Shown piece by piece: positions 2,071-11,304 of a stretch of DNA of 11,304 nt. This stretch comes from a plasmid. The translations under genes were made by a program, and so were the position numbers. Below the pieces are notes generated by a model that saw only the letters and a list, made by a program, of their open reading frames with translations, was not told the DNA's origin and did not search any database. The stretch lies in NCBI RefSeq assembly GCF_057098645.1, contig NZ_JBXSPU010000004.1; one strand, 5' to 3'. The stretch's first letter is position 1, and every line of letters begins with the position of its first letter.

Positions 2071-2279
2071 TAGCAAATGCCTGAATAATTTTCGTAGTTT
2101 TGATATACCCATCGTTGCAACCGCAACGGGATGAATTTGCCGCAGTTGTGCGCGAAAAACAATCCTGATTCCGGGACAGGATGTGTAATCGTATAACCGC
2201 GCACGCACGGCTATGCGATTACCACCTGGTCAGGGCTTTGCCCCGACACCCTCGACACCGTTCCCGCGATACGATAGAA

Positions 2280-2483
2280 GGGGTTCTAAGCCGGAAACCC
2301 AGAAAATTCCGTCACCAAAGCTAGTAATCGACAGATTTGCATGACGTTGAATAGGTGACGGGTTATGTGACGATATTTGGTGTCGAAATCGTTGTTTCAG
2401 TGACAGTCACTCAATCGATCGTTTGTGTGACACTCCCGTAAAAACTTGTCGCAGAAAAATCCAGGTTTCCGGCCGGGAACCCC
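2280..2483. mobile_element. 204-bp miniature element with Tn3-family-like terminal inverted repeats and 5-bp target duplication (TIME-like, non-autonomous)
   Basis: Left end GGGGTTCTAAGCCGGAAACCCAGAAAATTCCG; right end read inward GGGGTTCCCGGCCGGAAACCTGGATTTTTCTGCG. Both start GGGGTTC like the transposon IRs at 7516 and 11303. Flanked by identical TAGAA at 2275-2279 and 2484-2488. No ORF inside. Confidence 0.6.
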
Positions 2484-2571
2484 TAGAACATCAGGGCGCG
2501 TTTCCGGGTAAACGCATGTTAATGACCGGGAATTCATTGATCAGGGACCGGAGACGCGCTACAAAACTCCT

Positions 2572-2713
2572 GCGCGTTTCTGGCATCAACTGACCATGGG
2601 GATGGTTTGGCAGTAGCAGCAAGCGCCAGAAACGCGCTCAAAACGCCTCTGGCGGCAAAACCATTGCCCGATGCAAAAAAGTGCGTTACAAAGCCTCTGA
2701 GCGCGTTTCTGGC
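2572..2713. repeat. Nested inverted copies of GCGCGTTTCTGGC forming long-range hairpins, followed by a T-tract
   Basis: gcgcgtttctggc at 2572-2584 and 2701-2713; its reverse complement at 2624-2636. The pair 2624-2639 / 2698-2713 is a perfect 16-bp inverted repeat. T6 at 2716-2721. The 15-mer CTGAGCGCGTTTCTG recurs at 3466-3480 inside cer. Confidence 0.5.
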
Positions 2714-3097
2714 GTCTTTTTTGTTGCTGTGTCGCTATACTCGTTGTCAGATTCGCGCTCAATCATCACTGATTAATCTGCGCTTATCCTTCGACTGATC
2801 ACGCTGGTATTTTTTGACAACCGGTTCCCATGAAAACGCCAGACGGGAACCGTCATCCGCACCCTCTGACATGCTGGGGATTAAAAATCCCTGTGCCGCA
2901 CAGCCGGCGTTGCATAAAATTCCGCTCTGCGATGAGTATTGTTTAATCAAAAATCCCCTCGTTTTCTCCAGAAAAACGCGAGTCTGTTCTCATGCCCCGG
3001 ATGCCCACACCCCACGCAAAACCAACTTTTTTCTGATTTGCTTTTTAAATCATGTTGTTATGGTTTGAAAAATATATTTTCTTATTCAGATTTATAC

Positions 3098-3270
3098 AAA
3101 AGCGAGTCGTCGGCGACTACTGGATGATTCGGCAACGAGTCGTCGGTGATTTATCGATGACTCAACACACTGTCTCCCTGGTGTTCAGAAAAAGCGAGTC
3201 GCCAGAGAGTCGCGAGGAAAAATACTGGATGACTCGCTGATGGCTCCCGGGGTGAATCGCTCACGACTCG
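3098..3270. repeat. Cluster of GAGTCG / CGACTC-containing direct and inverted repeats
   Basis: (G/A)CGAGTCGTCGG at 3101-3113 and 3134-3146; ACTGGATGA(T/C)TCG at 3118-3130 and 3224-3236; GAGTCGCC and GAGTCGCG at 3196-3213; CGACTCG at 3264-3270. Confidence 0.5.
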
Positions 3271-3299
3271 TCTGTAACTACTGTCTGATTTCTTCTCAT

Positions 3300-3516
3300 C
3301 AGGGCTGAAAACGTCCGAAAATGCGCCTTATGGGAATCAGGCGCGCCCAAACCGATCGCCATTCAGTTTCATGCATAGTCATGCAGTGCCATGAAAACAA
3401 TCCTGACGTATTTTTCCGGTTTACCCGGGGGGAAAACATCTCTTTTTGCGGTTTTTGCGTCAGAATCGCGCTGAGCGCGTTTCTGCGGTGCGTACAATTA
3501 AGGGATTATGGTAAAT
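3300..3516 (+). other. cer-type multimer resolution site (accessory sequences plus XerC/XerD core)
   Basis: Core at 3487-3516 reads GGTGCGTACAA-TTAAGGGA-TTATGGTAAAT, which is the ColE1 cer XerC arm, 8-bp central region and XerD arm as I recall them. About 190 bp of upstream accessory sequence includes an ARG-box-like segment near 3360-3385. Left boundary approximate. Confidence 0.8.
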
Positions 3517-3524
3517 GTCTCCCT

Positions 3525-3947
3525 TTACTGCCTGCCCTCGTAGCCATCAAGATAAACCGCAGAAATCGTGTCAGCCAGCAGCTTCATTTTTTCCGGTGAT
3601 GGCATATCACCGTTCGTGTATTTTCTGCCAGCAAAGGTTGTTGTGCTCCGGAGTGAGTGAAAAAATTTTTCTGAGTGGAATTCTTTTACACGTTGCTGTG
3701 CCGTTTCTGCTGATACTCCGGCTGCTTTGTCTTTCATCCCCATATCCCGGAACTGCTGAAAGAACGGGTGCATCATACGTATGGTGTCTGCTTTCTGGGT
3801 GTGGAAGTTAGGATCAAATCCATCATCTGAAGCATAAACATAATGCCGGGTATGTCGTTCCAGGCTGGTCTTTGGTGTGCATCCTGTAAGAGCTATTGTT
3901 GCTGTTATCAGAGGTATCAGAAGCAGCCTGACAGCGGCAGATCTCAT
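3525..3947 (-). CDS. Putative lipoprotein (140 aa), function unknown
   Basis: N-terminus MRSAAVRLLLIPLITATIALTGC has a signal peptide and lipobox L-T-G-C; AGGAG Shine-Dalgarno 7 nt upstream on the minus strand. No family recognised. Confidence 0.6.
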   Translation of the reverse strand: MRSAAVRLLLIPLITATIALTGCTPKTSLERHTRHYVYASDDGFDPNFHTQKADTIRMMHPFFQQFRDMGMKDKAAGVSAETAQQRVKEFHSEKFFHSLRSTTTFAGRKYTNGDMPSPEKMKLLADTISAVYLDGYEGRQ

Positions 3948-4873: not shown

Positions 4874-6346
4874 ATGGATAAAGTCACTGATAATTCTCCA
4901 GATGTGGAGAGCACAGAATCTACTGAGGGGTCATTCCCAACCGTTGGGGTTGATACTGGCGATACGATTACAGCGACGCTTGCAACTGGAACTGAAAATG
5001 TTGGTGGAGGCGGTGGAGCATTTGGTGGGGCCAGTGAAAGTTCTGCTGCGATACATGCAACCGCTAAATGGTCTACCGCGCAGTTGAAAAAACATCAGGC
5101 TGAACAGGCTGCCCGTGCTGCTGCGGCTGAGGCAGCATTGGCAAAAGCGAAATCTCAGCGTGATGCCCTGACTCAACGTCTCAAAGATATTGTTAATGAC
5201 GCTTTACGTGCTAATGCCGCCCGTAGTCCATCAGTAACTGACCTTGCTCATGCCAATAATATGGCAATGCAGGCAGAGGCTGAGCGTTTGCGCCTTGCGA
5301 AGGCAGAGCAAAAAGCCCGTGAAGAAGCTGAAGCAGCAGAAAAAGCGCTCCGGGAAGCAGAACGCCAACGTGATGAGATTGCCCGCCAACAGGCTGAAAC
5401 CGAGCATTTGTTAGCTATGGCTGAGGCTGCTGAGGCTGAAAAAAATCGACAGGATTCTCTTGATGAAGAGCATCGGGCTGTGGAAGTGGCGGAGAAGAAT
5501 CTGGCTGAGGCTAAAGCTGAACTGGCGAAGGCTGAAAGCGATGTACAGAGTAAGCAAGCGATTGTTTCCAGAGTTGCAGGGGAGCTTGAAAACGCTCAAA
5601 AAAGTGTTGATGTGAAGGTTACCGGATTTCCTGGATGGCGTGATGTTCAGAAAAAACTAGAGAGACAATTGCAGGATAAGAAGAATGAATATTCGTCAGT
5701 GACAAATGCTCTTAATTCTGCTGTTAGCATTAGAGATGCTAAAAAAACAGAAGTTCAGAATGCTGAGACAAAATTAAAAGAAGCTCAGGATGCGCTTGAG
5801 AAGAGTCAGGTAAAAGATTCTGTTGATACTATGGTTGGGTTTTATCAATATATAACCGAACAATATGGAGAAAAATACGCAAGAATTGCTCAGGATTTAG
5901 CGGAAAAGTCTAAAGGAAAGAAAATTAAAGGTGTTGATGAAGCTTTAGCTGCATTTGAACAGTATAAAAATGTACTGGATAAGAAATTCAGTAAGGTTGA
6001 TAGGGATGCTATTTTTAATTCTTTAGAGTCTGTTAATTATGATGAGTTATCTAAGAATTTAACGAAGATATCAAAGTCGCTTAAAATCACTAGTCGAGTA
6101 TCTTTTCTATATGATGTTGGTTCTGATTTTAAAAATGCAATAGAAACTGGTAACTGGCGTCCTTTATTTGTCACGCTGGAGAAAAGTGCGGTAGATGTAG
6201 GTGTTGCAAAAATTGTGGCATTAATGTTTAGTTTTATTGTCGGCGTGCCTCTTGGTTTCTGGGGGATTGCTATTATCACAGGTATTGTTTCTTCTTACAT
6301 AGGGGATGATGAGTTGAACAAGCTTAATGAATTGCTAGGTATTTAA
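4874..6346 (+). CDS. cta: Pore-forming colicin of the E1 family, colicin 10-like (490 aa)
   Basis: Gly-rich N-terminal region, then [20 protein letters not shown]...[13 protein letters not shown]...LAHANN...ERLRLAKAE matching colicin E1 as I recall it. C-terminal channel domain ends [21 protein letters not shown]...LGI (E1: GIWGIAIVTGILCSYI...EVLGI). The length and the TonB-box-like DTITATL at residues 30-36 fit colicin 10; the symbol is tentative. Confidence 0.9.
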
Positions 6347-6848: not shown

Positions 6849-6957
6849 GTAAACGAAAAAACCGCCTGGGGAGGCGGTTTAGTCAAAGGTTAAGTCAGTT
6901 GGGGAACAGCTTAACCGGGTAACTGGCTTCAGCAGAGCGCAGATACCAAAAACTTGT
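6849..6957 (-). ncRNA. RNA I antisense copy-number regulator
   Basis: Antisense to the 5' ~110 nt of RNA II; its 5' end corresponds to the complement of cagataccaaaaacttgt (pBR322 RNA I begins ACAGTATTTGGTATCTG); three-stem-loop region. Ends approximate. Confidence 0.65.
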
Positions 6958-7478: not shown

Positions 7479-7515
7479 CTTGCTCACATGTTCTTTCCGG
7501 CGTTATCCCCTGATT

Positions 7516-7553
7516 GGGGTTCCGTGGGAATTTCTGCGATAACACCCGCTAAG
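7516..7553 (+). repeat. Left 38-bp terminal inverted repeat (IRL)
   Basis: GGGGTTCCGTGGGAATTTCTGCGATAACACCCGCTAAG. Confidence 0.85.
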
Positions 7554-7699
7554 CGATTCCTCCCTGACGGAAATCACTTGTTTTCCGTCAGGTCCTGCAG
7601 TTGAAGAAAATTGAATCCATAAATCTGTGATTTTTTGCGTGACAAACCCTGTCGGAATGAGAAACTGTACGGAAACTTCAATTTTAAGGTTTGTCGTAC
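7554..7699 (+). promoter_or_regulatory. res site (resolvase binding subsites) and tnpR promoter region
   Basis: 30-bp palindrome cctgacggaaa-tcacttgt-tttccgtcagg at 7563-7592, plus further TGTCGGAA / TGTACGGAA / TGTCGTACA half-sites at 7648-7700, between IRL and tnpR. Confidence 0.55.
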
Positions 7700-8323
7700 A
7701 TGTTGATTGGTTATATGCGGGTATCAAGCAATGATGAACGTCAGTCAGTTTCTTTGCAGCGTGATGCGTTGATTGCTGCTGGAGTGGATCCCCGGCATTT
7801 ACATCAGGATCATGCTTCAGGTGCTCGTGATAATCGCCCGGGACTTAAGTCCTGTCTCGCTGAACTTCGCGAAGGTGATGTACTGATAGTCTGGAAACTG
7901 GATCGACTTGGTCGTTCACTCTCACATTTGCTCCGAATTATTGAAGACCTGAAAATTCGTGGTATTGCTTTCCGATCATTGACTGAATCTATTGATACAA
8001 CAACGCCACACGGCTCGTTCCTCTTTAACCTTTTTGGCACGCTCGCGGAGTACGAAAGAACACTTATCACAGAACGCGTTAATGCTGGTCTGGCTGCTGC
8101 TCTCCGGCGGGGGAGAAAAGGCGGAAGGCCACCGGCGATAGATGCTGAAAAGGTTGATCAAATCCTCGCAGCTCTGGAAGGAGGTGCCAGTAAAGCGTCA
8201 GTATGTCGCGCATTCAGTGTGCCACGCTCAACGCTCACCGATACTCTACGACGAATTGGCTGGGCCGGACCTGGGGGGCGTAATCTGACAACGGATCAGA
8301 GCAATGTCATTTCTCGACTCTAA
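7700..8323 (+). CDS. tnpR: Serine recombinase (resolvase), Hin/Gin invertase-like
   Basis: MLIGYMRVSSNDERQ...RPGLK...GDVLIVWKLDRLGRS...GIAFRSLTESIDTTTP...GRKGGRPPA parallels Gin (MLIGYVRVSTNDQ...GDTLVVWKLDRLGRSM...GINFRSLTDSIDTSSP...GRIGGRPPK) as recalled. I place the start at ATG 7700 (AAGG about 10 nt upstream); the ORF track starts at an upstream TTG, 7691. Confidence 0.85.
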   Translation: MLIGYMRVSSNDERQSVSLQRDALIAAGVDPRHLHQDHASGARDNRPGLKSCLAELREGDVLIVWKLDRLGRSLSHLLRIIEDLKIRGIAFRSLTESIDTTTPHGSFLFNLFGTLAEYERTLITERVNAGLAAALRRGRKGGRPPAIDAEKVDQILAALEGGASKASVCRAFSVPRSTLTDTLRRIGWAGPGGRNLTTDQSNVISRL

Positions 8324-11270
8324 ATCGTACGATACGCTTTTTGGATTACCTGAACTTTATGAGGATGCACTTCCCCGGTTTTCGCTCTCCTGCGAGGATA
8401 TTGCATTCGCCAGAACTCATCGTCGATCTCATAACCGTCTGGGTTTTGCCATTCAGCTTGCACTTGTCCGTGATCTCGGTCGTACACTGCGTGCAGGAGA
8501 GATTCCCCCGGAGGCTGTTATCACCGTTGTTGCGGAACAACTGGATATTGACCCTGCTGTTTTTACACTTTACGCACAACGTGAGGAAACCCGCCGGGAA
8601 CATGCCCGCGAAATAGTTTCGGCTTTGGAGCTTCGTTCCGTCCGGAGTAGCGATTACAGAATGCTCATTATCGCGGCTACACGCGAAGCAGCAACCACCG
8701 AAAAAGGACTGCCGATCACCAGAGCAGTTATCAATAAGCTGAAGGACCAGAAGTTACTTGCCCCTGCTCCGGCACAACTCATCCGTCTGGCAATGGCGGG
8801 CCGGGCGGCTGCCCGTCGCCTTTCTTATCGGGAACTCATCAGGGATCTGAAACCTTCATCCATTAGCGCTCTCGAGCAGTTGCTTACCGAACGAGTCGGA
8901 GAAAAGAGCATTTTAGGCTGGATAGCTGAAGCGCCGGAAGGCGTGAAACTCAAGAATCTTAAGGGGTTAATTGCCAGGCTGGAGGTATTACGAACAGCGG
9001 CAATCTCCGATGAGCAACGTAAACGGATTCATGTAAACCGTTACGGTATTATTGCCCGGGATTCTCGCGTTTTACATGCGCGTGAAATACAACGAATGGC
9101 ATCCGAACGCTGTCATGCCACGCTGGTAGCCTTTGTTATTGAAAAGCAGGCAGCAATTACAGATCTGGCAATTGATATGTTCTGCAAATTGATTGGCAGC
9201 ACGAGGCGCAGAGCAGAGATAAGCCAGAAAGAGCGTCGTCTGAAAGCCGCTGAAGTACTTGAAGTCGTAGCTCAGGATCATATTAAGTTGGGACGGGCTC
9301 TCCTGGCAGCACGTGACGGTAATACTGATATTGAATCTGTAATAACAGCATCACTCGGCTGGGAAGGTTTGATTGCCAGTATGGAGGCTGCAGCTTCGGT
9401 GGCATCTTCCCATCACTGTTCTGAACTGGATGAACTTATCGGACGACAAAAATCATTACGTAAGCTTGGACGACTCATTTTCAGCGCTTTTTCTTTCAGA
9501 GCTTTTCGCCCGGATGATAGCGTTTTGTTGGCGATTGGGTATTTGCAGGCGTTCTATCATGGCCGAAAATTACCCAAACAAATTCCGCTCGATTTTATGT
9601 CCCATAAATGGCGACGTCGTGTCATCCATGGAGAAAATACCGATCTGCAGGCGTGGGAAGTCGCCGTATTCGTTCATTTGCGGGAACGCCTGAAAACAGG
9701 TGACATATGGGTTGATGGTAGTCGGGCCTGGCGTAGTTTTGAGGACTACCTTCTTCCTCACCATGTTTTCGGGCAGATGCGGGCAGAATCCCGGCTGGGA
9801 CTTGCCATTCCGGACAACTTTGCTGAATGGCGGGCTGAGCGAACCACCACACTCAACGCAAAACTGAAAGCGCTGGCAAAAGCTGCTTCGGAGAATGCCA
9901 TACCCGATGCAGAACTTTCCAGCAGAGGGTTGTCTGTGTCTCCGATTCGCGAAGAAGAGAGCGACAAAATTAAGGCTCTCAGCCGTAAACTCTACATGCT
10001 GGTACCACGCATCAGAATTACCAGTTTGCTGGCAGAAGTTCATAGCTGGACCAGTTTTCTTGATTGTTTCACCCATTATCGCACCGGGGAACAGGCGGAA
10101 GATGAAGCTGCACTTATGGCTGCGATCCTTGCCGATGCGACGAATGCGGGAGCAGAACGGATGGCGCAGAGTTCCCGGGGTGTCACCATTCACCAGATGA
10201 TGGTAATGATGGATCGTCATTTACGCACTGAAACCTATGCGTCTGCCACATCAGTTCTGGTCGATGCGCAACAGGAACATCCTTTTGCTGCTATATGGGG
10301 GGATGGGCATGTGTCATCCTCGGACGGGCAGTTTTTTCCTGCGGGTGGACGAGGAGAAGCCAGCCTCGAATATAACGCCAAATACGGCAAACGACCTGGC
10401 GCGTCGATTTATGGTTTTTTATCGAACCGTTTTGCATCCTTTTTTTCCAGAATGATTCAGGCCTCTGAAAGCGAGGCTCCCTACGTACTTGACGGCTTAC
10501 TTCATAACGAAAGTTCTGTGGTAATTCATGAGCATGCCACCGATACAGCCGGTGCGACTGAAACAACATTTTCAATGTTTCACTCTTTTGGTTACAGACT
10601 CATACCCCGTATTCGCAACCTCGGCAGTCGCAGGTTGTACGTTATTTCCCCCTCAGAGGAATATAAACCACTTGATGCCCTGATCGCCGGAAAGGCCAAA
10701 ATGGAAGTAATAGAACAGCACTGGGATGAAGTTCTGCGGCTTAAGGCCTCGATCGGCGCTGGTCTGGTACCACCATCGGTAATACTGAAAAAGCTGGCAG
10801 CATCTCCGAGACAAAACAGGCTCAATCTGGCCCTGCGTGAAATGGGACGTATTGAACGCTCAATTTTTATCTGTGACTGGTTGCTTGACACTCGGTTACG
10901 TCGCAGATCACACGCAATCCTCAACAAAGGCGAAAGCCGCCATGCACTTGCCCGCGCTATTTTTCTTCACCAACTGGGCGAATTCCGGAACAGGGCTGCC
11001 GAGACAATGGCTCACAGGGCATCGGGCCTCAACCTTGTTGTTAATGCAATAATTCTGTGGAACACGGTCTATCTCAGTCGGGCTGTTGATTACATTCGCA
11101 GCCAGGGGATCATTATACCGGAAGAGCTCTTGTCCAGTGTATCACCACTACCATGGGGTCATATCTCGCTCACTGGAGATTACCTGTGGAACGAAATTGA
11201 CCATCCCCTTGAACGATACAGGCCACTTCGTACTAATCGCTTCAATCCAAAGAACTTCACTTTTCCTTAG
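8304..11270 (+). CDS. tnpA: Tn3-family DDE transposase (988 aa)
   Basis: HNRLGFAIQLALVRDLG, NKGESRHALARAIFLHQLGEFRNR and NAIILWNTVYLSRAVDYIRSQG mirror Tn3 TnpA motifs (HNRLGIALQIGCVRFLG, NRGESRHAVARAICHGQKGEIRKR, NAVVLWNTIYMQAALDHLRAQG). Overlaps the tnpR 3' end by 20 nt. Confidence 0.93.
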   Translation: MSFLDSKSYDTLFGLPELYEDALPRFSLSCEDIAFARTHRRSHNRLGFAIQLALVRDLGRTLRAGEIPPEAVITVVAEQLDIDPAVFTLYAQREETRREHAREIVSALELRSVRSSDYRMLIIAATREAATTEKGLPITRAVINKLKDQKLLAPAPAQLIRLAMAGRAAARRLSYRELIRDLKPSSISALEQLLTERVGEKSILGWIAEAPEGVKLKNLKGLIARLEVLRTAAISDEQRKRIHVNRYGIIARDSRVLHAREIQRMASERCHATLVAFVIEKQAAITDLAIDMFCKLIGSTRRRAEISQKERRLKAAEVLEVVAQDHIKLGRALLAARDGNTDIESVITASLGWEGLIASMEAAASVASSHHCSELDELIGRQKSLRKLGRLIFSAFSFRAFRPDDSVLLAIGYLQAFYHGRKLPKQIPLDFMSHKWRRRVIHGENTDLQAWEVAVFVHLRERLKTGDIWVDGSRAWRSFEDYLLPHHVFGQMRAESRLGLAIPDNFAEWRAERTTTLNAKLKALAKAASENAIPDAELSSRGLSVSPIREEESDKIKALSRKLYMLVPRIRITSLLAEVHSWTSFLDCFTHYRTGEQAEDEAALMAAILADATNAGAERMAQSSRGVTIHQMMVMMDRHLRTETYASATSVLVDAQQEHPFAAIWGDGHVSSSDGQFFPAGGRGEASLEYNAKYGKRPGASIYGFLSNRFASFFSRMIQASESEAPYVLDGLLHNESSVVIHEHATDTAGATETTFSMFHSFGYRLIPRIRNLGSRRLYVISPSEEYKPLDALIAGKAKMEVIEQHWDEVLRLKASIGAGLVPPSVILKKLAASPRQNRLNLALREMGRIERSIFICDWLLDTRLRRRSHAILNKGESRHALARAIFLHQLGEFRNRAAETMAHRASGLNLVVNAIILWNTVYLSRAVDYIRSQGIIIPEELLSSVSPLPWGHISLTGDYLWNEIDHPLERYRPLRTNRFNPKNFTFP

Positions 11271-11303
11271 CGTGTGTTATCGCAGAAATGCCCACGGAAC
11301 CCC
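11266..11303 (-). repeat. Right 38-bp terminal inverted repeat (IRR)
   Basis: Reverse complement reads GGGGTTCCGTGGGCATTTCTGCGATAACACACGCTAAG; differs from IRL at positions 14 and 31. Confidence 0.85.
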
Positions 11304-11304
11304 T

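What the first reader, a model, noticed from the sequence alone, without database searches (positions are those of the whole stretch)
2496..2721. Nested long-range inverted repeats sharing a 15-mer with the cer accessory region
GCGCGTTTCTGGC occurs forward, inverted, then forward; the outer pair is a perfect 16-bp inverted repeat about 58 bp apart, followed by a T-tract. The same CTGAGCGCGTTTCTG word lies immediately upstream of the cer XerC arm at 3466-3480. This may be a degenerate second cer-like accessory region, a relic of a cointegrate between two ColE1-like plasmids, or a structured terminator or RNA element.
Basis: seen in the sequence. Interest (0 to 1): 0.4.

Follow-up and report, generated by a model that had tools for sequence, protein, structure and literature searches.

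The report
Stem-loop array from a captured rolling-circle plasmid
The repeated 13-mer is real: it forms the stems of three tandem ~65-base stem-loops that this colicin plasmid picked up, with the tail end of a replication gene, from a tiny rolling-circle plasmid. It is not a second cer site, and its function is still unproven.

Summary
GCGCGTTTCTGG(C) occurs at 2572(+), 2625(-) and 2701(+), with one-mismatch copies at 2496 and 3475: 5 hits against 0.04 expected.

The stop codon of a 37-codon remnant of a Rep_1 rolling-circle rep gene (2759-2875, minus strand) lies inside the last arm. Window 2134-2874 is collinear with a 2.3-kb Shigella rolling-circle plasmid. So this is a captured fragment lying between an I-type and an F-type orphan oriT.

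The same units (64-66 nt, conserved 12-13-bp stem, diverged loops) occur in ColE1-like, rolling-circle, RepL/NikA and pKL1-like plasmids and in Y. pestis pPCP1. In E. coli they are almost only on plasmids.

It is not a cer site. It has no Xer core and no ARG box, and similarity to cer stops at about 36 nt. The shared 15-mer belongs to a palindrome that ColK-type cer sites carry next to the XerC arm.

Function is unproven. Stem mismatches are G·T on the + strand 7 times and A·C never, which suggests a strand-specific single-stranded fold. My best guess, at low confidence, is a single-strand DNA priming signal. A small RNA or an inert relic are real rivals.

The parts
2484..2495 (+). Remnant of the conserved leader (TAGAACATCAGG). 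Homology to related plasmids begins at 2484, just after a 204-bp insertion (2280-2483).
   Evidence: In relatives the leader reads CTCGACA-N17-TA(A/G)AAC-N6-7 before the first stem.
2496..2560 (+). Stem-loop unit A: arms GCGCGTTTCCGG and CCGGAGACGCGC (one T·G pair), 41-nt loop.
2572..2637 (+). Stem-loop unit B: perfect 13-bp stem GCGCGTTTCTGGC/GCCAGAAACGCGC, 40-nt loop with an inner hairpin ACCAT-GGGG-ATGGT (2593-2606). This is the most widely conserved unit.
   Evidence: 95.5% of stem cells paired, against 30-48% for the whole structure when the 3' partners are slid.
2638..2697 (+). A-rich 'tail' between units B and C. It starts with TCAAAACG, holds the small hairpin GGCAAAACCATTGCC (2654-2668) and a promoter-like pair TTGCCC (2664-2669) - 17 nt - TACAAA (2687-2692).
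   Evidence: In rolling-circle relatives the minus strand of this tail carries a terminator-like hairpin plus T-run after rep.
2698..2761 (+). Stem-loop unit C: arms TGAGCGCGTTTCTG and CAGATTCGCGCTCA (12 of 14 paired). Its left arm also pairs perfectly over 17 bp with 2624-2640. The T-tract 2717-2722 lies in its loop. The last three bases (2759-2761, TCA) are the rep stop codon on the minus strand.
   Evidence: (I2, I11).
2759..2875 (-). Remnant of the 3' end (about 37 codons plus stop) of a Rep_1-family rolling-circle replication gene: ...SEGADDGSRLAFSWEPVVKKYQRDQSKDKRRLISDD*
   Evidence: tblastn finds the peptide at the C-terminus of 'protein rep' in 245 small plasmids. Pfam Rep_1 matches a full-length relative at E = 2.6e-73.
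2173..2189 (-). I-complex (R64-like) oriT nick motif. It belongs to the captured fragment: window 2134-2279 is 82% identical to the oriT of the Shigella rolling-circle plasmid.
3005..3116 (-). F-type oriT core. The nick-like TTTGCGTGGGGTGTGG lies on the minus strand at 3005-3020. The SLT (orf169) side of true F plasmids corresponds to lower window coordinates, so the stem-loops sit on the leading side of this oriT.
   Evidence: (about 2700 IncF-type records).
3461..3485 (+). Palindrome CAGAATCGCGC-TGA-GCGCGTTTCTG at the XerC-proximal edge of cer. It contains the second copy of the 15-mer (3471-3485).
   Evidence: (D4, D5, I1).
3487..3516 (+). cer core GGTGCGTACAA-TTAAGGGA-TTATGGTAAAT, the only Xer core in the window. 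An ARG-box-like palindrome lies at 3372-3385.

Best explanation
What it is (about 0.85 on its own): the repeats are the stems of three tandem stem-loop units, part of the non-coding region that follows the rep gene in pBuzz-like Rep_1 rolling-circle plasmids. A ColK/Col10-type ColE1 plasmid captured that region together with an I-type oriT and the last 37 codons of rep. It now lies between that oriT and an F-type oriT, 0.8 kb from cer. The 15-mer shared with cer is the family's stem motif. ColK-type cer sites carry the same motif as a tight palindrome beside the XerC arm, and the two copies behave as recombination junctions.

How it works (inferred, about 0.35): the units act as folded single strands, not as a Xer site. 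The plus strand is the one under selection to pair. My most likely mechanism is that, when the plasmid is single-stranded after conjugative entry from an oriT on the same strand, the stem-loops stay free of SSB and serve as an entry point for priming the complementary strand. That would make it work like an ssi or sso signal.

What is shown: the anatomy, the origin, the distribution and the strand bias. What is inferred: single-strand folding in vivo and any priming role.
For: Origin: the stop codon of a Rep_1 C-terminal remnant lies in the last arm. Window 2134-2279 and 2548-2874 are collinear with Shigella plasmid pSO87_sm014, in the order oriT(I), leader, unit, tail, unit, rep end. The same order is seen in L011, L012 and L142.

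Family: units are found in 114 PLSDB records, 52 of them Y. pestis pPCP1 copies, and on gut metagenome contigs. Hosts include ColE1-like, Rep_1, RepL/NikA and pKL1-like replicons. 23 of 27 distinct units are 64-66 nt long although 52-74 nt was allowed. Stems are nearly invariant while loops have diverged.

Plasmid-restricted: 70 of 71 places in 49 of 5426 complete E. coli genomes are on plasmids.

Strand bias: within stem positions 1-12 there are 7 independent G·T pairs on the plus strand and 0 A·C pairs (with pPCP1 unit C re-oriented by hand). The changes are both C>T and A>G.

Link to transfer: across five plasmid lineages an I-type nick motif on the same strand as the plus form is almost always present. 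In several it lies 475-585 nt 5' of the first unit.

No rival identity was found: no ORF is conserved across the variable loops, there is no Rfam family, and there is no consensus promoter.

Recombination junctions: indels between the window and its relatives end inside the arms.
Against: There is no experimental evidence and no similarity to any ssi or sso I could compare with. A phage search was negative, and plasmid G-sites were not compared.

In the rolling-circle hosts the dso-like sequence TCCTTGTATTTATAC lies on the rep-sense strand. The displaced strand would then carry the minus form, which conflicts with the plus-strand bias if the element were their sso.

Orientation relative to RNAII, cer and the ColE1-type or F-type oriTs is not constant. 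In this window the F-type oriT and the nearest I-type oriT would transfer the minus form.

Formal covariation is weak: 8 of 13 stem pairs never vary and only one pair shows compensatory change.

The strand bias rests on only 7 events.
Confidence: 0.4

Rival explanations
1. Small structured plus-strand RNA(s). Each unit would be transcribed from a weak promoter-like leader (TCGACA or TTGCCC, 17 nt, TAAAAC/TACAAA-type box, then 6-8 nt to the first stem base). In rolling-circle plasmids the RNA would run antisense into the rep 3' end. In this window the long-range 2624-2640/2698-2714 pairing plus T-tract would end a ~150-nt transcript.
For: The plus-strand G·T bias fits G·U pairs or a plus-sense transcription unit. 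The bipartite leader keeps exact 17-nt spacing in front of units B, D and E and of the unit that follows the tail, while the spacers differ. The element's orientation is independent of ori, cer and several oriTs, as expected for a self-contained gene. The middle arm can pair with either neighbour, which is attenuator-like.
Against: None of the seven variants of the -10-like box ends in T, and the promoter scan finds nothing. The spacers contain degenerate right arms, so the 'promoter' may simply be a decayed upstream unit. The T-tract occurs only in the ColK-like lineage. There is no Rfam hit even though pPCP1 sRNAs such as sR084 are in Rfam. The known pPCP1 sRNA HmsA maps elsewhere.
Confidence: 0.25
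2. Inert relic in this plasmid. In rolling-circle plasmids the region serves rep (3'-UTR hairpin, terminator and/or single-strand origin on the rep-sense strand). In the ColK-like plasmid it only hitch-hiked with the I-type oriT. It persists because the inverted and direct repeats recombine, which produces the variable number of units.
For: rep is reduced to 37 codons. The minus-strand terminator seen in L011 (GGCAAGGATTTGCC + CGTTTTTTCG) has decayed in the window. Relatives differ by whole units, with breakpoints in the arms. Location directly after rep is the classical place for an sso or terminator (established knowledge of rolling-circle plasmids).
Against: Stems stay almost perfect in plasmids that have no rep at all (pPCP1, RepL/NikA and pKL1-like plasmids). 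The stem mismatches favour the strand antisense to rep.
Confidence: 0.2
3. Double-stranded DNA site: the arms would be half-sites for a host protein or a gyrase/partition-type locus, working like pSC101 par. As I recall it, par has related segments arranged forward, inverted, forward.
For: Stem sequence is conserved rather than covarying. Arm spacing is constant (12 + about 41 bp, roughly 5 helical turns). The arrangement is forward-inverted-forward. The same motif sits at the protein-covered edge of cer.
Against: A duplex site predicts equal numbers of G·T and A·C differences between arms, but 7:0 is seen. No candidate protein or known motif was identified. The resemblance to pSC101 par is from memory and was not tested.
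Confidence: 0.1
4. One reading: a degenerate second cer-type accessory region that can still synapse or recombine with cer.
For: An exact 15-mer in direct orientation, a 36-nt stretch at 78% on the opposite strand, and tail-to-cer similarity of 25/27 in other plasmids, plus a weaker 20/24 block at a collinear position.
Against: There is no XerC/XerD core and no ARG box. For the part of the tail more than 35 nt from the 15-mer, alignment to cer barely exceeds shuffles (best score 16.5 against a shuffle maximum of 14 over 561 pairs). The units also occur far from, and inverted relative to, cer.
Confidence: 0.05

Closest known systems
Single-strand origins (sso) of rolling-circle plasmids
   Same: A non-coding, strongly folded region lying immediately after the rep gene of very small Rep_1 plasmids, which otherwise hold only rep, a dso-like site and oriTs.
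   Different: No sequence relation to sso types was shown. The strand favoured by stem mismatches is antisense to rep, not the strand expected to be displaced. It also occurs in theta-replicating plasmids.
Leading-region single-strand initiation signals of conjugative plasmids (ssi, Frpo of F and ColIb-P9; primase G-sites)
   Same: Stem-loops located a few hundred nucleotides from an oriT nick on a strand that is transferred. For plasmid G-sites I recall conserved outer blocks around a dispensable middle, which resembles conserved stems with free loops.
   Different: No promoter-like -35/-10 inside the stem as in Frpo. No homology to F-like plasmids beyond the oriT core. Activity is untested.
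cer / ckr Xer multimer-resolution sites and the Pcer region
   Same: The 11-13-nt motif GCGCGTTTCTG and its complement form a palindrome one base from the XerC arm. That zone should hold the Pcer -35/spacer, an inference from PMC2831885, which states that rcd is transcribed in the same direction as RNAII. There is up to 25/27 identity between the module tail and some cer edges.
   Different: No recombinase core and no ARG box, and similarity stops at about 36 nt.
Orphan-oriT small plasmids (pBuzz, pSe-Kan/pKPN2, pCERC7 group)
   Same: The surroundings match this type: two inverted I-type oriTs, an F-type oriT next to cer, and no relaxase. PMC9282650 reports efficient F-mediated mobilisation of such a plasmid and describes pBuzz.
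   Different: The papers I could read do not mention the stem-loop units. The pBuzz paper itself was not available.
Intrinsic terminator / attenuator
   Same: Mutually exclusive pairings of a middle arm with an upstream or a downstream arm, the latter followed by TTTTTT.
   Different: The loop is 57 nt, the T-run is absent in most relatives, and there is no upstream promoter or leader peptide.

Membership tests
cer/psi/ckr-type Xer site | XerC arm - 6-8-bp spacer - XerD arm core | tested here: not met
   The pattern with up to 3 mismatches finds only 3487-3516.
cer/psi/ckr-type Xer site | ARG box about 100 bp upstream of the core within ~180 bp of accessory sequence | tested here: not met
   TGMATNNNNATKCA matches exactly only at 3372-3385, which belongs to the true cer. 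Nothing lies in 2484-2770.
cer/psi/ckr-type Xer site | Extended sequence similarity to cer accessory DNA | tested here: not met
   The best local alignments are 15 nt exact and 36 nt at 78%. Further from the 15-mer, similarity is near shuffle level.
cer/psi/ckr-type Xer site | XerCD/ArgR/PepA-dependent recombination | not testable with these tools
   Needs an in vivo resolution assay.
Intrinsic (Rho-independent) terminator | G+C-rich stem, short loop, then a U-run, conserved in relatives | tested here: not met
   No plus-strand site at 2496-2721 in the scan. The 17-bp stem has a 57-nt loop. The T-run is limited to the ColK-like lineage.
Rolling-circle plasmid single-strand origin (sso) | Extensive secondary structure in non-coding DNA of a rolling-circle plasmid | tested here: met
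   Fold z = -3.6 to -4.6. Located after rep in L011, L012, L142 and L192.
Rolling-circle plasmid single-strand origin (sso) | Active form lies on the displaced (nicked, rep-sense) strand | tested here: inconclusive
   The dso-like motif is on the rep-sense strand, but stem mismatches favour the opposite strand.
Rolling-circle plasmid single-strand origin (sso) | Orientation-dependent conversion of ssDNA to dsDNA | not testable with these tools
   Needs an ssDNA accumulation or M13 origin-deletion assay.
ssi / G-site / primosome assembly site | Primase- or PriA-dependent priming on SSB-coated ssDNA | not testable with these tools
   No sequence consensus was available to test. There is no similarity to phage records.
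Described RNA families (Rfam 15) | Covariance-model match at the gathering score | tested here: not met
   Only RNAI (6853-6954) matches in the window. Nothing credible at E up to 5 in 2400-3560. Nothing on the homologous pPCP1 region.
Mobile palindromic element (MITE/REP/PATE-like) | Dispersed copies in unrelated chromosomal contexts | tested here: not met
   70 of 71 places in 5426 E. coli genomes are on plasmids. Units always occur in arrays beside oriT, rep or cer.
Rep_1 rolling-circle rep gene (for the 2759-2875 remnant) | Protein homology to Rep_1 initiators | tested here: met
   The remnant aligns to Rep C-termini. A full-length relative hits Pfam PF01446 at E = 2.6e-73. Only about 37 codons remain, so the gene is dead.

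The most novel reading that the evidence does not exclude
The ~65-nt units (invariant 12-13-bp stem GCGCGTTTCYGG, free ~40-nt loop, conserved linker TCAAAAC) are an undescribed, portable, strand-specific cis element. It would be either a new class of single-strand priming signal or a family of small hairpin RNAs. Small enterobacterial plasmids of at least four replicon types, including Y. pestis pPCP1, would exchange it together with orphan oriTs and cer.
Probability: 0.3. Interest if true: 0.6.

Novelty: new member of a known kind. Interest (0 to 1): 0.35.

Why it matters
Relaxase-less small plasmids that carry only oriTs are now recognised as a large share of enterobacterial plasmids. How their transferred single strand is converted to duplex DNA is largely unstudied.

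A conserved stem-loop module that travels with orphan oriTs across replicon types, and sits in the plague plasmid pPCP1, would be a concrete and testable candidate for that step. If it is transcribed, it would instead be a new plasmid RNA.

For annotation, the result shows that this stretch is a scar of fusion between a rolling-circle plasmid and a ColE1-type plasmid, not a second Xer site. It also shows that the repeated arms act as recombination junctions that reshuffle oriT, rep and cer modules.

Tried and rejected
1. A genome-contig scan with the 16-base loop pattern returned almost only chance hits. Only Y. pestis was real, and the scan was wasted.

2. The pPCP1 sRNA HmsA/sR084 maps elsewhere on pPCP1. 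Rfam finds nothing on the module.

3. No similarity to phage origins in 50,697 phage records.

4. A lagging-strand primosome site for ColE1 replication is rejected. The plus form has the same sense as RNAII in the window and pPCP1 lineages but the opposite sense in the unit-D lineage.

5. A sigma-70 promoter is not supported: there are no scan hits, and the -10-like boxes never end in T.

6. A mobile MITE-like element is rejected because the units are restricted to plasmids.

7. Comparison of local versus long-range pairing energies by constrained folding and eval gave inconsistent numbers and was discarded. I cite only the unconstrained folds.

8. Literature searches for the loop sequence, pBuzz, pKL1, ssi and G-sites found no description of the units. 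The pBuzz paper is not held.

9. The first ARG-box pattern had the wrong spacing and was redone.

Full report
**Setting.** The window is a whole 11,304-bp plasmid. It matches E. coli O157:H16 plasmid NZ_CP062882.1, except that a Tn3-family transposon sits at a different place. It is a ColK/Col10-type ColE1 replicon:
- RNAI at 6853-6954
- rop at 342-536
- colicin, immunity and lysis genes
- exc2 at 3525-3947
- a cer core at 3487-3516, with an ARG-box-like palindrome at 3372-3385

It encodes no relaxase but carries several orphan transfer origins:
- a ColE1 bom-like nick motif at 188 (-)
- I-complex-type nick motifs at 961 (+) and 2173 (-)
- an F-type oriT at 3005-3116, which matches about 2700 mostly IncF plasmids

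In a true F-like plasmid oriented like the window, the SLT/orf169 gene lies to the left of the match and traM to the right. The finding therefore lies on the leading side of the F-type oriT.

**The observation.**
- GCGCGTTTCTGGC lies at 2572 (+), 2625 (-) and 2701 (+).
- A one-mismatch copy lies at 2496.
- A perfect 17-bp inverted repeat joins 2624-2640 and 2698-2714, 57 nt apart, and is followed by TTTTTT at 2717-2722.
- The 15-mer CTGAGCGCGTTTCTG recurs at 3471-3485, one base before the XerC arm.

The 12-mer with up to one mismatch occurs 5 times against 0.04 expected. The region folds far better than shuffles on both strands (z = -3.6 to -4.6).

Two more arms complete the picture. 2549-2560 pairs with 2496-2507, and 2748-2761 pairs with 2698-2711. 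The region is therefore three tandem stem-loop units:
- A, 2496-2560
- B, 2572-2637
- C, 2698-2761

Units A and B are joined by the linker TACAAAACTCCT. Units B and C are separated by a 60-nt A-rich tail. Because all stems share one sequence, the middle arms can also pair long-range. The unconstrained fold prefers that pairing in this particular plasmid.

**Where it comes from.** On the minus strand an open frame ends with TGA inside the right arm of unit C (2759-2761). It reads ...SEGADDGSRLAFSWEPVVKKYQRDQSKDKRRLISDD*. This matches the C-terminus of Rep proteins of small enterobacterial plasmids:
- L142...AEGTDDGSRLAFSWVPVVKKYQRNRAKDKRQLSGED*
- 245 PLSDB records by tblastn
- full-length relatives are Rep_1 rolling-circle initiators (Pfam E = 2.6e-73)

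Window 2134-2279 (I-type oriT) and 2548-2874 (units, tail, rep end) are collinear with the 2330-bp Shigella sonnei plasmid pSO87_sm014. That plasmid has two inverted I-type oriTs like pBuzz. L011, L012 and L142 have the same order.

The finding is therefore the non-coding region that follows rep in pBuzz-like rolling-circle plasmids. The ColK-like plasmid captured it with an oriT and a dead stub of rep. Close relatives of the window carry one or two extra units, and the indel breakpoints fall inside the arms.

**The family.** Homologues of the region occur in:
- 114 PLSDB records, 52 of them Y. pestis pPCP1 copies at about 70% identity
- 49 of 5426 complete E. coli genomes, with 70 of 71 places on plasmids
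- gut metagenome contigs

The host replicons are ColE1-like, Rep_1 rolling-circle, RepL-like with NikA, and pKL1-like 1.6-kb plasmids.

At least seven loop types share the same 12-13-bp stem. Each unit is followed by T(C/T)AAAAC. In arrays the next stem starts 6-8 nt later.

A conserved leader, CTCGACA-N17-TA(A/G)AAC, precedes the first unit. The tail carries TTGCC(C/T)-N17-TA(C/G)AA(A/C) before the next stem.

On an alignment of 12 B-type units the stem is 95.5% paired, and the whole structure 94.4%. Slid controls give 30-48%. However, 8 of 13 stem pairs never vary and only one shows compensatory change. The support for structure is therefore the inverted repeat itself rather than covariation.

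**Relation to cer.** There is no second Xer core and no ARG box. Local alignment to the window's cer gives only the 15-mer and, on the opposite strand, 36 nt at 78%.

The cer copy of the motif is part of a tight palindrome, CAGAATCGCGC-TGA-GCGCGTTTCTG, that abuts the XerC arm. Related cer sites have the same feature. Some (L158, L173) match the module tail at 25 of 27 positions. Beyond that stretch, similarity is close to shuffle level.

PMC2831885 states that rcd is transcribed in the same direction as RNAII and that Pcer is repressed by nearby XerCD. On that basis I infer that the cer copy lies in the Pcer -35/spacer zone.

The two 15-mers are direct repeats that bracket the 759 bp holding unit C, the rep stub, the F-type oriT and the cer accessory DNA. 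Recombination between them would produce the hybrid cer edges seen elsewhere. So the shared word reflects a common motif and probably exchange between the sites, not a second cer.

**Function.** Several ideas were tested and failed.
- The element matches no Rfam family.
- It is not the pPCP1 sRNA HmsA.
- It has no phage relatives.
- It has no consensus promoter.
- Its plus-strand T-tract is lineage-specific.
- It is not dispersed like a MITE.

Its orientation relative to RNAII and cer differs between lineages. That argues against a lagging-strand primosome site for ColE1 replication.

The most informative signal is in the stems. Where the two arms differ within positions 1-12, the pair is G·T on the plus strand in 7 independent cases and A·C in none (with one unit re-oriented by hand). 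Both C>T and A>G changes contribute. This points to selection for pairing of the plus strand as a single strand.

In the rolling-circle hosts the plus strand is antisense to rep. The dso-like TCCTTGTATTTATAC, which from memory resembles the phiX174 and pC194 nick regions, lies on the rep-sense strand. The displaced strand should then carry the minus form, which sits badly with a classical sso.

By contrast, an I-type nick motif on the same strand as the plus form is present in nearly all complete plasmids of five lineages. In several it lies 475-585 nt upstream of the first unit. The transferred strand from that oriT would carry the plus form early.

I therefore commit, at low confidence, to a stem-loop signal on transferred single-stranded DNA that helps start complementary-strand synthesis. 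Two real rivals remain: a plus-strand small RNA driven by the promoter-like leaders, and an inert relic. In this window only the distant I-type oriT at 961 would transfer the plus form. The F-type oriT and the nearer I-type oriT would transfer the minus form.

**Verdict.** The cer interpretation is not supported. The plasmid-fusion idea is right, but the partner was a rolling-circle plasmid. The stem-loop family seems unannotated and was not described in the literature I could read. It belongs to a familiar kind of small-plasmid cis element, and its function needs simple bench tests.

Noticed in passing
window 7514-11304 versus 4874-6346: The window and RefSeq record NZ_CP062882.1 have the same length. 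In the window the Tn3-family transposon (resolvase 7691-8323, transposase 8304-11270) lies just downstream of the ColE1-type ori and the colicin ORF is intact. In the record the transposon interrupts the colicin gene, in the opposite orientation. Short duplications flank both positions.
   Followed up: partly
window 188, 961, 2173, 3005: The plasmid has four orphan oriT-type nick motifs of three kinds and no relaxase gene: ColE1 bom-like (-), two inverted I-complex-type motifs flanking the 64-aa ANR-family gene at 1159-1353, and an F-type motif (-).
   Followed up: partly
window 2280-2483: A 204-bp insertion relative to the closest relatives, rich in GTGAC repeats. Pieces of it match about 1200 mostly conjugative plasmids of several genera. 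It could be yet another oriT or iteron fragment.
   Followed up: no
window 3098-3291: Direct and inverted repeats of (A)CGAGTCGTCGG... lie on the traM side of the F-type nick (families D1, D2, I3, I12). They are candidate TraM/TraY-type binding repeats of the orphan oriT.
   Followed up: no
L156 5418-5495, L157 6318-6395, L165 5031-5108, L186 2616-2693: The sRNA sR084/HmsA (Rfam RF02761), described from Y. pestis pPCP1, is present at full score on ColE1-like contigs from metagenomes (at least L156 and L186 are from gut samples). These contigs also carry a unit-D stem-loop.
   Followed up: no
window 2697-2711 and 3471-3485: The two 15-mers are direct repeats that bracket the 759-bp segment holding unit C, the rep stub, the F-type oriT and the cer accessory DNA. 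Hybrid cer edges in L158 and L173 look like products of recombination between such repeats.
   Followed up: partly
L013 609-700 (also L007, L014): Two further hairpins follow unit B in RepL/pKL1-like plasmids: ACGGTTTCCGG...CCGGAAACCGT and TCTGGGG-AGAA-CCCCAGA. They are conserved in most of the ~700 matching records, many of them 1.5-kb pKL1-size plasmids that lack unit B, so they probably belong to that replicon.
   Followed up: partly
L011/L012/L142, upstream of rep (rep-sense strand): Two conserved features lie about 250-430 nt upstream of rep in the rolling-circle plasmids: the hairpin GGTGGTTGG...CCAACCACC followed by a T-run, and a phiX174/pC194-like nick motif TCCTTGTATTTATAC. The hairpin is an alternative candidate for their single-strand origin.
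   Followed up: partly
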